DNA from: Eledone cirrhosa
Taxonomy: Eukaryota
Assembly (NCBI GenBank): GCA_964016885.1
Contig: CAXHJY010001542.1
Span: forward strand, 1-46,782
DNA: 46,782 nt
Reading direction: 5' to 3'
Shown piece by piece: positions 6,496 through 43,980 of the stretch; the first letter of the stretch is position 1, and each line of letters starts with the position of its first letter. The position numbers and the translations under genes were made by a program. The notes under the pieces are model-generated. The model searched no databases, was not told where the DNA came from, and was given only the letters and a program-made list of their open reading frames with translations.

Positions 6496-9400
6496 CTGAA
6501 AGTAAGAGAAATAAAAATTACAACAACAACAACAGCAACAGTAGCTGGCAATAATAATAATTTTTTCTGAATTAGCAACAAGACTAAAAACTTTTGGGGT
6601 AAGGGAAAGTCGATTTAATCAACCCCAGTGCATTACTGGTACTTCATTTTATTGACCCCTGTAAGGGTGAAAGACAAAGCTAACTTTGGCAGAATTTGAA
6701 ACATGAAGGGTTGTAACAAAATACTGCAATGCTTTTCATCTAACATTACAGAGTGTACTTGGTGTATTTTATCGTAGCACCACCACTATCATTTTACAGA
6801 GTGGGTTGGGTGTATTTCTGGATGAGCACTCTAATCCAACATAATTCTAAAGCAGAGTTTTTGAATAAGTATATCACCGTCAATGTTTCTAAATCTGAAG
6901 GTTTACCATTGAAAAGTAGGAGGGCTGATGTATCATCCAGCGCTTCTCTCTCCCATTCCTTTCCTAGGTAAAGGACCTATATTGGGGTAATGATAACACT
7001 TGAAAGACTTTAGTGGATGGAGTTTAGCTGTGCTGTGTATAGAGCTTATGACATATCCAGAGACTTATCTCATGAGATTCAGGAATTTACCTCAGAGAAC
7101 TGGAGACAGCAATGTAGAGGAATGCCCGGATTGTGGAGGAATTGTTGAGAGTGTTCCAACCAGCAACAGGTTGAAGGATGATGATGATGATGATGATGAT
7201 GATGATGATGATGATGATGATGATGATGATGTTATAACTTTGTTCCCCACCCCCCACCAACATCTCAGAAGCCTTGAAGACAGTGGCATGTGCTGCCTGT
7301 TTTTCTCTGACTAAACCATTAAAAAAAAATATCAAATAAAACCACACAATCAACTTACTTATTGTTAGATAAGAAATACAACTTATCATTTACACTTAAC
7401 ACTGAATCAATGCGTTTCGGGATATTTATAAAAAAGCGCGAAGTCGAGTAACCTCTGCCATCTGAAATATAACGGTGTTTTGGCATCAATTCCCAAAAAT
7501 ATCCCTCCTGTGGAATAGAAATTGAAGAAAAAGCATGGAAGCTTAATTATTCTTTGAAATTACTGATATCTCACAGACTTTCTTAAAAATTGCAAAATAT
7601 GTGTTTTGGACATAAACGATAACAAGAACTATGATGGTTAAAAAGGTTCACTACCTGATTATGGTAAAAATCACTAACCAAGTGCTATTAATTAATTCAT
7701 TGTATATATATATATATATATATAATTATTTCAAGTAAAATACATTAGTTGATCAATTAATCAACCAACTAGTGTGTAAACAGACATAAGCACTCCATGT
7801 CATGGCTACCTCAAGGTATTACCTCTAAGGTATCAGACGGAATGTCAATATTATATACACAGTGGAACCTCAGTTCAAAAATTTAATTCGTTCCTAAAGG
7901 CTGTTTGTCACCTGAAATGTTCATAGTGTGTGTGTGTGTGTATGCACATATGTGTGTGTGCAAGCATGTGTATGAGTCTCTTCATGCGGAATATATAAAA
8001 AAGTGAATTCCAGATGCATGTTATCATTTTTACAAGTATAGTTCATGCCCCCACCCAACTATGTTTCTCATATGAAATGTTGAGAGAAATATAGTAGAGG
8101 GAAAGACTGTATGTGACAGATATCACCATAGTAACTAACTATACAGCAAGTGATGCTTTTCTGCTGATACTCCCAGTTTGTCACCAACCATTGTTGCCAG
8201 CTGGTGCGTTCGTTACTCAAGACACTGTTTGTGAACCGAAGTTCCACTGTGTGTACACACACATATACGAATATACAAACACACACATATACGAATATAC
8301 GTACACACACATATACGAATATACGTACACACACATATACGAATATACGAACACACACATATACGAATATGCTTTAACGCCTCTTGAAAAAATATGATTA
8401 AATATTCACTTTGCACAAATAACACGCTATAATGCATGTGGGTTTTAATTTTTTTAAATTACACTTGAATTACGCAAATTTGCTTTAAGCACGGCATACA
8501 TGGATGCATCTTTGCGTAAAAAGCGAACGTCCCTTCAATCTTTCTAATTTCTCATTCTTTCTTCTGATGAAGAACTAGTGTCCGAAACGTTAAGACCCTC
8601 TTCCTACTATTTCAAGCATTAAACTAATATATTTCTTCCATATACTGTACTGATTGTGTTTACCTTTTACATACATATATGTATGTATGTGATTTGTATG
8701 TATGTGTATATATATGTATGTGTGTGTATGTATATATGTATATATGTCATGTCTTTAACTCACTTTTATTACAAAAATCCTGACAGATTTGTGATAGCCA
8801 TACGTTGTGGTCAGGCCCATCATGGCCTCCATATGTGCAGCATTACTGTTTGACAGTGTTATTGGGTAATTATATTCAAGTGTGAAAGCTGTGCCAGTAT
8901 TTCGAACTCCAAAGGCCCACAATCTTCTACCTAAACAAATGAAATAAAATAAATTTACATATTTACTATAATGGAGCTAAATGCTATATATATATATATA
9001 TGTCAGACATCTTGAAATATATATATATATATTAGTAAAAGGAAAAGAAAATGCTGACAATATATATATATATATATTGTCAGCATTTTCTTTTCCTTTT
9101 ACTAATATATATATATATATATTTCAAGATGTCTGACATATATATATATATATATATATATATATATGTACGTTATTCCGGGTTGAATCGGAGGTAACCA
9201 CAGTAAGTAAGGTACTCAATACATAGCAGAGTATAACAGTTTTAATATAGATGAGATTCTACAGGACTAGAACTGTTTCATTCATTAGAAATGTGATTCC
9301 TGATGATTTCTAATGAATGAAACAGTTCTAGTCCTGTAGAATCTCATCTATATTAAAACTATATATATATATATATATATTAGAATTGGTGCTCTGAAAT

Positions 9401-12400
9401 AGCTATATATATATGAATGTATAGTGTATTTTGCAATACACTGTGTGCTTAATTAAAAGCATTTCGAAGACTTTATGCTATTGTTTTAGAGTAGTGACAG
9501 TCTCACTTACTTTAATTTTCAGCAAACAGGGGAGATAAAGCTTTATCTCCCCTGTTTGCTGAAAATTAAAGTAAGTGAGACTGTCACTACTCTAAAACAA
9601 TAGCATAAGGTCTTCGAAATGCTTTTAATTAAGCACACAGTGTATTGCAAAATACACTATACATATATATATATATATATACACACACACACACACCATA
9701 AGCTAAATATTAACATACATACCATAAGCTAAATAGACTTCATTTGTTTCCTCAGAATAGATGGCAGCTTCTACACGGCCAGGACCATGTTTAAAGACGG
9801 TGTTAATAGAGAACTTGCGACCAGTTTCACTGCTGATCACATATTTCTGGTCAACGAACACATAATCAACTCGGTTTAAAACTATAAAAGGAGGAAGGAA
9901 ACAATTTAAAACAATTTCAAACAATTTCAAACATGGTGGATCGTTGAAGAATATCACTGAGCCATATAGATAACTTTGAAATGAAGGAGATGATGGTGAT
10001 GATGATGGTGATAATGGTGATGGTGATGATTATGATGGTGATGTTGATGGTAATGGTGGTGATGGTGATGATGGTGATGGTGGTGATGATGGTGATGGTG
10101 GTGATGATGATGGTGGTGATGGTGGTGATGATGATGGTGGTGATGGTGATGATGGTGATGGTGGTGATGGTGATGGTGGTGATGGTGATGGTGGTGATGG
10201 TGATGGTGGTGATGATGATGGTGATGGTGGTGGTGATGGTGGTGATGATGATGGTGGTGGTGATGATGGTGATGAGGAGGAAGGAGGAAGAAAGTGAAGG
10301 CAAGTGTGAGGTGGAGAGTTCAATATGTGGTGGGGACAGAGGTTTGAGAGGGAAGGGAGGAGAGTATGGAGGGTGTAAGAAGTAAGGGAAAGGTAAATAC
10401 GAAAGGAGGAGGGTGAAGGGGTGAGTAAAAGGTGGAGGAAGGGGTGAGGAAGAGGGGAGGTGAGTAAAAGATTGGGGGCAAGGCAAAGCAAGAGTGGGAG
10501 TAGTGTGAGTAAAAGGTGAGTAAGAAATGAATTAGATGTGGTGGGAGTGAGTACAAAGGGAAGTGCAGTAATATTGGGGTGGGGGGGGGGCACTGCGTGA
10601 TGGGGTGAAGGGGGGAGGGGCACTGTGAGATGGGGTGAGGGGAGGGGCAGTAAGATGGGGGTGAGTAGATAAGGAAATATTCTATAAAAATACAATGTCT
10701 GACCTCTCATTGTAGCAACAACTTTCCTATATTGTTGGTTACAATATCCATTTCCCATTGGCCGGCGGGTTGTTGAATCTGGTCGAGATGTCTGTCTCCT
10801 ATTACCTATAATAATAATAATTGTTTCTACTTTAGGCTCAAGATCAGCAATTTTGTGGGAGGGGAAAGTCGATTAAATCGACCCCAATGTATTACTGGTG
10901 GGATTTGAACTCAGAATGGAAAGGGCCGTAACTCTATGCGTCAAAGCATGGCGTCCGACCCTCTACCAAGGTACAAATAATAATAATAATAATAATAATA
11001 AAGAAAAAAAATTGAAGGAGCATACCATACAAACTTTGAATTCCTCTGACATCATCAACATGTAGCTTGAAGTTTGGAATATATCCACGATAATAAGGGG
11101 CCATCAGAGCTTCTGACACTTGAGAATGGGCCAGACCAAGGGCATGACCAAATTCATGTGCAGCAACAATTTCCAGGTTGGTACCCTTTTCTGTATTGAT
11201 TGTCCATTCTTCTGAATCATCAAAGTGAGTGTCACCATTGCTCGGAAAGAAAGCATGAGCAAGAACGCCACCTAGGAATGAAGAGAGTAAACATGTGATA
11301 TTTTCTAAACTTTTTTGTGGTGGAGGGGCTTTATAAAAATTGACACAAAAATGATGGATGTTGTTTAATGTAAGTATATCATCATCATTTTTACATCAAC
11401 TTTTCCAGCATGGGTCCGGCTGAACTTTTTGAGTCTGGAACCACCTGGGTTTATGATATAAAAAAACTGGTCATTTTGAAATGTTCATATTTATATTAAA
11501 ATGTTCCATCATAATTTTATTTATGAAATCTTTGCTATGTAATGTTCCAGACATCACAACAAATTAGCAGTCGTTTGGTCCTGTATTGGTACCTCCCCAC
11601 ACGGGAAGTCATTAGATCCTGTTTTGCTACCCCATTCCATGGAAAGAGGTAAAGAGAATGTCTCAAGATAAACTGGCAACAGACAATCCACAGAGACCTG
11701 AAATCCGTCAACAAAAGTTTGAATGATGTATTGATAGATGTAACTGACCGTGGTCATTGGAGCACTTTGGCTGCCTCATGTGCCTCAAGATTTGGGAGCT
11801 TACTAAAGCAAATGGTGTAGATCTATGTCTTATTGGTTTCCTGATAACAACATAAATGTCTGAAGGCTGCCACTCTACCCCTATCCTAATATGCCACCCA
11901 CTTTGTAGTTCGTTTGTCTCATTAGATTCTTAAAATTTCTAAAATTAATCGAAGCACATAGGCTGTGTATTTCATTACAAGTTTTTCCTCATCATATCAG
12001 TTTCAGTTCAGTGGTCTCATTTGCACCAATCTGGTACTTTGTCAAACCCACAAAGACTAGGTGTTTTTAGAGGCAGCCTTAACTCACCTCGTCGTATCTA
12101 TATCACTGGGCTGTGAGAATTTTCTTGGTAGCTACAGGTGTCACCCATTGCTCCATCCCCCTTAGTAGTTTACTACTGTTGGTTCTGAGTTGCTTATTCG
12201 TCCAGTGGTTGCTCGCTTATACCGTAACTAGCCATCATATCTGGTGGCCATATTGCTATCTACCACTTGTGATCCATTCTCTAGCAAAACAACTCTTCAT
12301 TAGAAGTACAGCAATAATAAAGTTAATGATACGATCAATATAATTATTATGGGAACTTACCTCGTCCATCAAAACTGTTTCCATCTCCGTGTTTTCCCTT

Positions 12401-43720: not shown

Positions 43721-43929
43721 AACCAAATAAATATATATATTGAAAAAAAAAATAAGACTTCAGTTGCATTTTCGATTTCATCCCTTTTTCTTTATACTTC
43801 CACTCGTGTAGGACACCTCGGTTATTTTTCATTTTGTAAAAAAAACCTCACTTTCTAATATATATATATATATATATATATATATATATATATATATAAA
43901 CAAGTATATTTATTAAAATAACAGATTAA

Positions 43930-43980
43930 AGTTTAAGTAAAGAATCGCTGCTTTCACCCTTAACGGGATCTTCTGAAACT
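43930..43980 (-). ncRNA. Degenerate hammerhead motif (U4 mutated)
   Basis: AGTTT CAGAAGA TCCC-GTTAA-GGGT GAAA G...C TT/AAACT. Confidence 0.4.

What the first reader, a model, noticed from the sequence alone, without database searches (positions are those of the whole stretch)
8560..43980. Diverse set of self-cleaving hammerhead motifs in fold-back elements that sit in (TA)n
Seen: six sequence-unrelated short elements (8560, 9291, 29045, 29431/29731, 42340/42452, 43552/43683) plus one decayed case (43930) share the type I hammerhead order stemI-CUGANGA-stemII-GAAA-stemIII-UH-stemI'. Each has different but complementary stems. Four sit in inverted-repeat elements with a one-sided tail between (TA)n tracts. 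Known: Penelope-like elements carry minimal hammerheads with short palindromic stem III (dimer-cleaving) in their terminal repeats and often leave inverted, 5'-truncated repeats. Inference: these are remnants or non-autonomous derivatives of several microsatellite-targeting Penelope-like families, which would imply a very large, largely unannotated ribozyme population in this genome.
Basis: partly seen in the sequence, partly recalled or inferred. Interest (0 to 1): 0.85.

Follow-up and report, generated by a model that had tools for sequence, protein, structure and literature searches.

The report
Penelope retrotransposon stubs carrying hammerhead ribozymes
These seven short repeats are the broken-off back ends of seven abundant families of Penelope-like jumping genes that landed in TA repeats, each carrying the small, predicted self-cutting RNA motif that such elements are already known to have, so the catch is real but of a known kind.

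Summary
All seven motifs are type I hammerhead folds. Each belongs to a separate repeat family with 3,981-21,952 exact motif matches genome-wide (74,155 in total; reversed-pattern controls 0). In long genomic copies every family lies downstream of a Penelope-like element (PLE) coding frame: A, B, G Hydra-type; C, D, E Neptune-like; F a further clade. The links for D and E rest on one and two loci. So these are 5'-truncated ends of coding elements, not separate non-autonomous fold-back elements. The inverted tail-less arm, one-sided tail and (TA)n target are the published PLE footprint; here the tail is the 5' UTR in front of the next ORF. Corrections: 43930 is no decayed oddity (its altered position 4 is family-wide), 43683 has the U3-A8 core, and B and G have hairpin rather than palindromic stem III. 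Stem and core covariation suggest selection on the fold. Cleavage is untested, and 65 of 90 tail-anchored copies run through the cut site. In fold-back copies the two motifs are antisense and would anneal. The scan found the same pattern earlier elsewhere in this genome. New members of a known kind.

The parts
8528..8660 (+). Family E PLE 3' stub; hammerhead core at 8564, extra A after A9, 4-nt palindromic stem III, stem II mutated in this copy; no inverted arm
   Evidence: (3,981 exact matches)
9166..9360 (-). Family B (Hydra-type) fold-back insertion: tailed copy on the - strand (tail about 9168-9237), tail-less inverted copy 9295-9360 on the + strand with a complete motif at 9295-9343; the junction lies in stem I
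   Evidence: (4,311)
28986..29294 (+). Family F PLE 3' stub with hammerhead at 29045-29088 (extra G after A9), inner end and tail
   Evidence: (18,352)
29380..29939 (+). Family A (Hydra-type) fold-back insertion: inverted arm from 29380, tailed copy 29594-29939 (tail about 29835-29935); hammerheads at 29480- and 29736+
   Evidence: (7,836)
42218..42654 (+). Family C (Neptune-like) fold-back insertion: arms 42218-42417 and 42413-42605, tail to 42654; hammerheads at 42373- and 42457+
   Evidence: (6,091)
43475..43866 (+). Family D fold-back insertion: arms 43475-43628 and 43644-43796, tail to about 43860; U3-A8 hammerheads at 43585- and 43687+
   Evidence: (11,632)
43906..44055 (-). Family G (Hydra-type) tail-less 3' stub; hammerhead about 43930-43980 with A at position 4, U-U closing stem II and hairpin stem III (one mismatch in this copy)
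   Evidence: (21,952)
28720..28800 (-). Further family G tail fragment without the hammerhead

Best explanation
Each element is the 5'-truncated 3' end (pseudo-LTR plus optional tail) of a coding Penelope-like retrotransposon family, sitting in a (TA)n tract where it was likely inserted by target-primed reverse transcription, and its hammerhead motif is the family's pseudo-LTR ribozyme, predicted to cut RNA but untested here. Inferred mechanism: the GIY-YIG domain nicks both strands of (TA)n. The RT starts at two fixed internal sites downstream of the hammerhead, one at the far end of the tail and one at its near end. It usually stops after 100-500 nt, and the two cDNAs join head to head, giving the fold-back with a tail on one side. 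Shown: the family links, the fixed 3' ends, that the tail is the 5' UTR before the next ORF, and that most cDNAs run through the cut site. So the copied RNA was likely uncut or re-ligated. The motif is likely kept functional in the source elements and decays in stubs; fold-back stubs would be self-silenced as long hairpins.
For: ORF links: C to an RT + GIY-YIG frame (L048, L057, L072; Pfam GIY-YIG E 3.9e-06 above cut-off, RVT_1 E 5.1e-06 below cut-off). A and B through long loci L287/L288/L290 and L291/L292/L295-L297. Same-strand PLE ORF within 1.5 kb upstream in position-ordered loci: F 19 of 30, C 5 of 30, G 4 of 30, A 2 of 30, E 2 of 30, D 1 of 30, B 0 of 30 (B has a 3' UTR of about 3-4 kb). 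L072 has the textbook layout: inverted truncated copy, partial pLTR, tail, ORF, 3' UTR, hammerhead, tail. Tail runs into the ORF start in L290 (A), L296 (B), L072 (C). Two fixed 3' ends per family, each joined to TA repeats. TA-type tract within 450 nt downstream in 198 of 210 loci against 296 of 630 other windows of the same loci. Two compensatory stem I pairs among 12 hand-picked family B variants, with core and stem III nearly invariant and loop II variable. The 3-8 core pair switches to U-A in four sequence-unrelated motifs; in 419 loci the C3-A8 mismatch never occurs and U3-G8 only as 5 single copies. Layout and core variants are described in PMC8557442, PMC4209133, PMC11167929, PMC3088659.
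Against: No cleavage data. The D link rests on one locus (L075), backed by a second copy that shares 956 nt of its UTR; the E link on two loci with tblastn E of only 1e-5 to 1e-7, though the translated motifs are clear. Hydra-type ORFs match no Pfam RT or GIY-YIG model, so clades are assigned from motifs, with no tree. 5' ends do not pile up at the predicted cut (1 of 90 within 2 nt, family B shifted by hand by 10 nt). The loci were anchored on core-containing patterns, so they under-sample broken cores. Isolated window motifs E, G and the + arm of C do not adopt the hammerhead fold as minimum-energy structure.
Confidence: 0.92

Rival explanations
1. They are non-autonomous retrozyme-like elements, short non-coding hammerhead RNAs mobilised in trans by PLE proteins.
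For: Most copies are short and non-coding. Family B forms an ORF-free tandem array of about 1.08-kb units (12 motif matches at G000:C1:83.68-83.69 Mb). Animal retrozymes are proposed to derive from PLEs (10.64898/2026.07.22.740005).
Against: 5' ends are scattered, and long copies of every family run into a PLE ORF. The B array itself follows an ORF-bearing copy (L295).
Confidence: 0.05
2. They are MITE or fold-back DNA transposons with TA target sites, and the hammerhead look is incidental.
For: Inverted repeats between TA tracts look like MITEs. Four of the seven window elements are fold-backs.
Against: Arm length varies from copy to copy, only one arm has the tail, many copies have no inverted arm (none of 30 for E), and arms extend into RT/GIY-YIG coding sequence.
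Confidence: 0.01
3. The elements are PLE stubs, but their hammerheads no longer cut RNA even in the source elements; the fold is kept for protein binding or not at all.
For: 65 of 90 tail-anchored copies run through the cut site. L290 and L296 read through two intact motifs. In the anole PLE, ribozyme mutants do not change insertion in vitro (PMC11167929). Family G carries a changed position 4.
Against: Catalytic positions and the 3-8 pair are kept across unrelated families; related PLE hammerheads cleave, weakly, in vitro (PMC4209133).
Confidence: 0.2

Closest known systems
Hydra clade of C-terminal EN+ PLEs, including Hydra-1_Obim (Craig et al. 2021, PMC8557442)
   Same: Families A, B, G have the RW(K/R), DKT, CxCx5C, CxxC and CxH motifs where the ORF part was recovered, insert in (TA)n and carry hammerheads. 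The paper's File S2 already lists U-U closure of stem II, U at the cleavage position and 3-4-bp stems III.
   Different: These are other families: their motifs differ from the listed Hydra-1_oBim hammerhead. B has a 3' UTR of several kb made of microsatellite. No listed motif has A at position 4, as G does.
Neptune-type PLEs and the general EN+ PLE footprint: pLTR, inverted 5'-truncated copy, one-sided tail (PMC8557442; PMC11167929)
   Same: C, D, E have a C-terminal GIY-YIG; C and E have the Cx4CxxC linker; C has the DKG motif. The tail lies between two fixed 3' ends, as the two RT start sites of the anole element predict.
   Different: Tails of A, B, D and G are about 60-100 nt rather than 30-40 nt and, where a tandem copy was seen (A, B, C), lie in the 5' UTR. 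The ends share 1-5 nt with the TA target, whereas the anole element starts at a site called not homologous to the cut DNA.
PLE hammerheads / min-HHRs (Cervera and de la Pena 2014, PMC4209133)
   Same: Type I fold, palindromic short stem III, extra base after A9, U3-A8 covariation, opposite-strand pairs 100-700 bp apart, many families per genome.
   Different: Count: 74,155 exact matches for seven families here against about 9,000 descriptor hits in the richest vertebrate genome named there (different methods, not directly comparable).
Animal non-LTR retrozymes (10.64898/2026.07.22.740005; PMC7229834 seen as a search listing only)
   Same: Type I hammerhead, PLE origin; one family B array has a similar tandem form.
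   Different: The window elements are single or inverted stubs of coding elements, not tandem arrays.

Membership tests
EN+ Penelope-like element | Single ORF with PLE-type RT and C-terminal GIY-YIG endonuclease upstream of the repeat | tested here: met
   RT and EN regions for A, B, C, F, G; EN end only for D (1 locus) and E (2 loci). No ORF fragment inside the window itself.
EN+ Penelope-like element | Partial tandem (pLTR) and inverted 5'-truncated copy | tested here: met
   L072, L290, L296. Inverted partner within 1.5 kb in 65 of 210 loci, both arms of one insertion sometimes counted twice; 0 of 30 for E.
EN+ Penelope-like element | Tail on one end only, bounded by two fixed 3' ends | tested here: met
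   A, B, C, D, F, G; only one end found for E.
EN+ Penelope-like element | Phylogenetic placement of the RT with named PLE clades | not tested
   No tree built; the homologue search returned 475 mostly unnamed proteins of about 700 aa.
Hydra clade (families A, B, G) | RWK, DKT, CxCx5C linker, CxxC and CxH motifs; (TA)n target | tested here: met
   B shows all (RWR variant). A shows RWK and DKT in the DNA after the tail (L290, read by eye) and the C-terminal motifs. G shows linker, CxxC and CxH; its N-terminus was not recovered. Definition from PMC8557442 section 11.
Neptune clade (families C, D, E) | Cx2-5CxxC zinc-finger linker before GIY-YIG, DKG motif | tested here: inconclusive
   Linker present in C and E, DKG in C; linker not recovered for D; Nematis also has a linker finger, and no tree separates them.
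Type I hammerhead ribozyme | Core C3-U4-G5-A6-N7-G8-A9 / G12-A13-A14 / A15.1-U16.1 / H17 with three helices | tested here: met
   Met for A, B, C, E, F; D has the known U3-A8 swap; G departs at position 4. U-U at 10.1-11.1 (B, C, G) is a known tolerated variant (PMC3088659).
Type I hammerhead ribozyme | Stem covariation among relatives | tested here: met
   Family B only: 2 of 6 stem I pairs change on both sides in 12 selected variants (the tool warns that relatedness alone can beat its shuffles). Other families not tested this way.
Type I hammerhead ribozyme | Self-cleavage after H17 | not testable with these tools
   Needs in vitro assay or raw RNA reads.
Non-LTR retrozyme | Non-coding tandem units, each with a complete hammerhead | tested here: not met
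   No such tandem in the window for the seven elements; met only by one family B array elsewhere.

The most novel reading that the evidence does not exclude
The genome's most abundant family among these seven (G, about 22,000 exact motif copies) uses a hammerhead with A at core position 4, a U-U stem II closure and a hairpin stem III that cuts and re-ligates as a monomer. The source PLE RNAs circularise at the hammerhead, and the RT, primed by 2-5 nt of pairing with nicked (TA)n at two fixed sites, copies round the circle. That would explain the tail, the partial tandems and why cDNAs cross the cut site, and would make this a system in which the long-proposed circular PLE intermediate can be tested on several young families at once.
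Probability: 0.15. Interest if true: 0.6.

Novelty: new member of a known kind. Interest (0 to 1): 0.24.

Why it matters
It confirms that hammerhead-bearing PLE ends are a large repeat class in this genome (at least 74,155 exact motif matches from seven families, about 25 per Mb) that Rfam's model mostly misses. It supplies natural core variants, notably A at position 4, for ribozyme tests. The architecture and nearly all the variants are in print, so the gain is a catalogue and a test bed, not a new kind of element.

Tried and rejected
Rfam scan of the window: only hairpin and TA-repeat microRNA look-alikes among the 150 rows shown. RF00163 over the genome: 18 matches over cut-off from 74 scored of about 415,510 rough candidates, none in the window, so no usable count. 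DNA search with family D returned nothing because its words are too common; a pattern search replaced it. My first reading of B (short stem III, mismatched stem I) was wrong and was replaced by the hairpin stem III, which moves the cut by 10 nt. The idea that every family has an internal (TA)n at the tail end holds only for C (one locus); A, B and G have 2-3 nt overlaps. The idea that cleavage defines the 5' end of copies was not supported. Sequencing-run search: no RNA holder listed; no reads were laid. Literature searches for octopus plus hammerhead ribozyme, C3U/G8A with Penelope-like and U4A gave nothing beyond Craig et al.; Lunse et al. (PMC5785218) was not available and may already list the position 4 variant. 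A lead from an earlier scan note, a duplicated signal at the two 3' ends, was left untested.
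Full report
Setting. The window is contig C1569 of G000, a 3.0-Gb assembly with contigs up to 443 Mb. Size and TA richness suggest an octopus-like animal; that is my inference and was not tested. I call the seven elements A (29.4-29.9 kb), B (9.2-9.4), C (42.2-42.7), D (43.5-43.9), E (8.5-8.7), F (29.0-29.3) and G (43.9-44.1).

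Observation. A strict type I descriptor found only the two arms of A (2 hits, shuffle mean 0.013, 0 of 300 shuffles reaching 2). A relaxed descriptor allowing a mismatch or extra purine at the base of stem II, the U3-A8 core and any base at position 4 found 5 hits against a shuffle mean of 0.003. It was written after seeing the motifs, so that control flatters it. Inspection and genomic relatives show that all seven are hammerhead-shaped. A, C, D and E have short palindromic stems III and F a near-palindromic one. B and G have hairpin stems III. B, C and G close stem II with U-U; E and F have an extra purine after A9; D has U3-A8; G has A at position 4. The four fold-back elements are confirmed and fold as single long hairpins of -100 to -330 kcal/mol.

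Copy number. Exact 20-27-nt patterns within or across each motif gave A 7,836, B 4,311, C 6,091, D 11,632, E 3,981, F 18,352 and G 21,952 matches, each with 0 for the reversed control: 74,155 in all. This is a lower bound on motif copies, and both arms of a fold-back count. Tail patterns gave G 15,194, A 2,280 and B 13,261. Flanks of the 419 loci then held (1.4 Mb, overlapping) showed roughly ten further unrelated hammerhead motifs.

Link to coding elements. C lies about 380 nt downstream of an ORF with RT catalytic motif, Cx4CxxC linker and GIY-YIG. L072 shows inverted truncated copy, partial pLTR, tail, ORF, UTR, hammerhead, tail. For A and B I fetched 11 stretches chosen for widely spaced or repeated motifs, and 2 for E. 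All four A stretches and five of seven B stretches held Hydra-type ORF parts; L293 held only an unrelated nested PLE, L294 no ORF, and the two E stretches no PLE ORF. In 30 position-ordered loci per family, a same-strand PLE ORF lay within 1.5 kb upstream for F in 19, C 5, G 4, A 2, E 2, D 1, B 0; hits I judged to be neighbouring unrelated elements (L196, L199, L098, L258, L130, L152) are not counted. B has all Hydra-clade motifs of Craig et al. (section 11); A and G have those that were recovered. In tandem copies the tail runs straight into the start of the next ORF (L290, L296, L072).

Insertion anatomy. Each family except E has two fixed 3' ends: an inner one used by the inverted arm and by many solo copies, and an outer one at the tail end. 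Both join TA repeats, with 1-5 nt shared between element and target (A 2 and 3, B 1 or 5 and 2, C 5 and longer, D 4, F 4, G 4 and 3; read). No composition-matched control was run, so this is only suggestive of primer pairing. A TA-type tract follows within 450 nt in 198 of 210 loci against 296 of 630 other windows of the same loci. This fits the two internal RT start sites shown in vitro for an anole PLE (PMC11167929, parts 1-2 of 4 read).

Is the ribozyme under selection, and is it used? Among 12 family B variants, picked from 34 distinct ones by leaving out most junction-damaged or near-duplicate rows, two stem I pairs change on both sides, loop II varies, and core and stem III stay almost fixed. 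Across all loci, core-breaking changes were rare, 0-5 hits per class and always in known families; the largest was 4 hits of an A13 change in family A. The U3-A8 swap occurs in four unrelated motifs. Pattern-anchored sampling biases this towards intact cores. Against routine use of cleavage on the copied RNA: in 90 tail-anchored loci 65 run 5' through the predicted cut (G 14, A 27, B 24 of 30) and 1 starts within 2 nt of it. That one (L400) is an inversion junction that stem I complementarity explains (BLAST end points, B shifted by hand, a few loci are two arms of one insertion). Templates were therefore uncut or re-ligated; the data cannot tell a linear tandem transcript from a circle. In fold-back stubs the two motifs are on opposite strands, so they cannot form the same-strand dimer and would anneal instead (inference).

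Comparison with the literature. Cervera and de la Pena (PMC4209133, parts 1-2 of 4 read) describe PLE hammerheads with palindromic stem III, the extra base after A9, U3-A8, opposite-strand pairs 100-700 bp apart, thousands of copies per genome and low in vitro activity. Craig et al. (PMC8557442: passages, section 11, supplement searches and part 2 of 59 of the supplement) describe the inverted copy, the tail and (TA)n targeting, list a Hydra family from Octopus bimaculoides, and tabulate Hydra hammerheads with U-U closure and U at the cut. Perreault et al. (PMC3088659, passages) report U10.1-U11.1 and U4C. An Octopus vulgaris annotation lists 31 recently active Penelope-like families and has no occurrence of 'ribozyme' in its main text (PMC13282606, passages). 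I also read passages of PMC6765202 and part 1 of 5 of 10.64898/2026.07.22.740005. I did not find the A-at-position-4 core in print (File S2 of Craig et al.), but Lunse et al. could not be read, and unseen supplements of PMC4209133 may hold it. Earlier scan notes reached the same reading on other pieces of this genome; my reading was fixed before I saw them.

Verdict. Real, well explained, and of a known kind: truncated and inverted ends of seven PLE families with pLTR hammerheads in (TA)n. What is left open is catalytic activity, the family G core variant, and whether the template is circular.

Noticed in passing
window 3414-5258: The 26-copy, 71-nt tandem array aligns to the end of a family B-like element, from hammerhead stem II into the tail (local scores 75-96 against shuffle maxima 47-53). 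No unit passes the hammerhead descriptor: likely a satellite born from a dead PLE end.
   Followed up: partly
G000:C1:83679791-83691707 (L294, L295): Twelve family B hammerhead matches in tandem at about 1.08-kb spacing, each unit being microsatellite, 3' UTR, hammerhead and tail, following an ORF-bearing copy; retrozyme-like in form.
   Followed up: partly
window 9419-9662 and 8985-9168: Two more perfect fold-back elements between TA tracts with no hammerhead core. The first resembles by eye a hammerhead-bearing family nested in L074; both are probably PLE ends truncated downstream of the motif.
   Followed up: partly
window 11050-15900, - strand: Exons of a matrix metalloproteinase gene (cysteine-switch and zinc-binding motifs at about 15838 and 11158); elements B and E lie 1.7-2.5 kb downstream of the zinc-site exon.
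   Followed up: no
window 19068-26116: A very homogeneous 51-nt satellite, 138 copies at 96% match; no hammerhead hit.
   Followed up: no
window 34218-35630, - strand; 31842-32433: By eye, a LINE reverse-transcriptase fragment and a second retroelement 3' end set in TA tracts; 32699-32845 repeats the start of the first.
   Followed up: no
window 40588-40724: A repeat with a hammerhead-type first core box at 40653 but no complete motif; the same sequence flanks L042.
   Followed up: no
L074, L291, L292, L295: Family B elements carry a 3' UTR of several kb made largely of TA/TG microsatellite, into which other elements have inserted; the element supplies its own target.
   Followed up: partly
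L293:1726-4200, - strand: An open PLE frame of at least 825 codons related to family F (about 60% identity), nested between two family B arms.
   Followed up: no
flanks of loci L001-L419: Roughly ten further unrelated hammerhead motifs, three with U3-A8 and two with C at position 4.
   Followed up: partly
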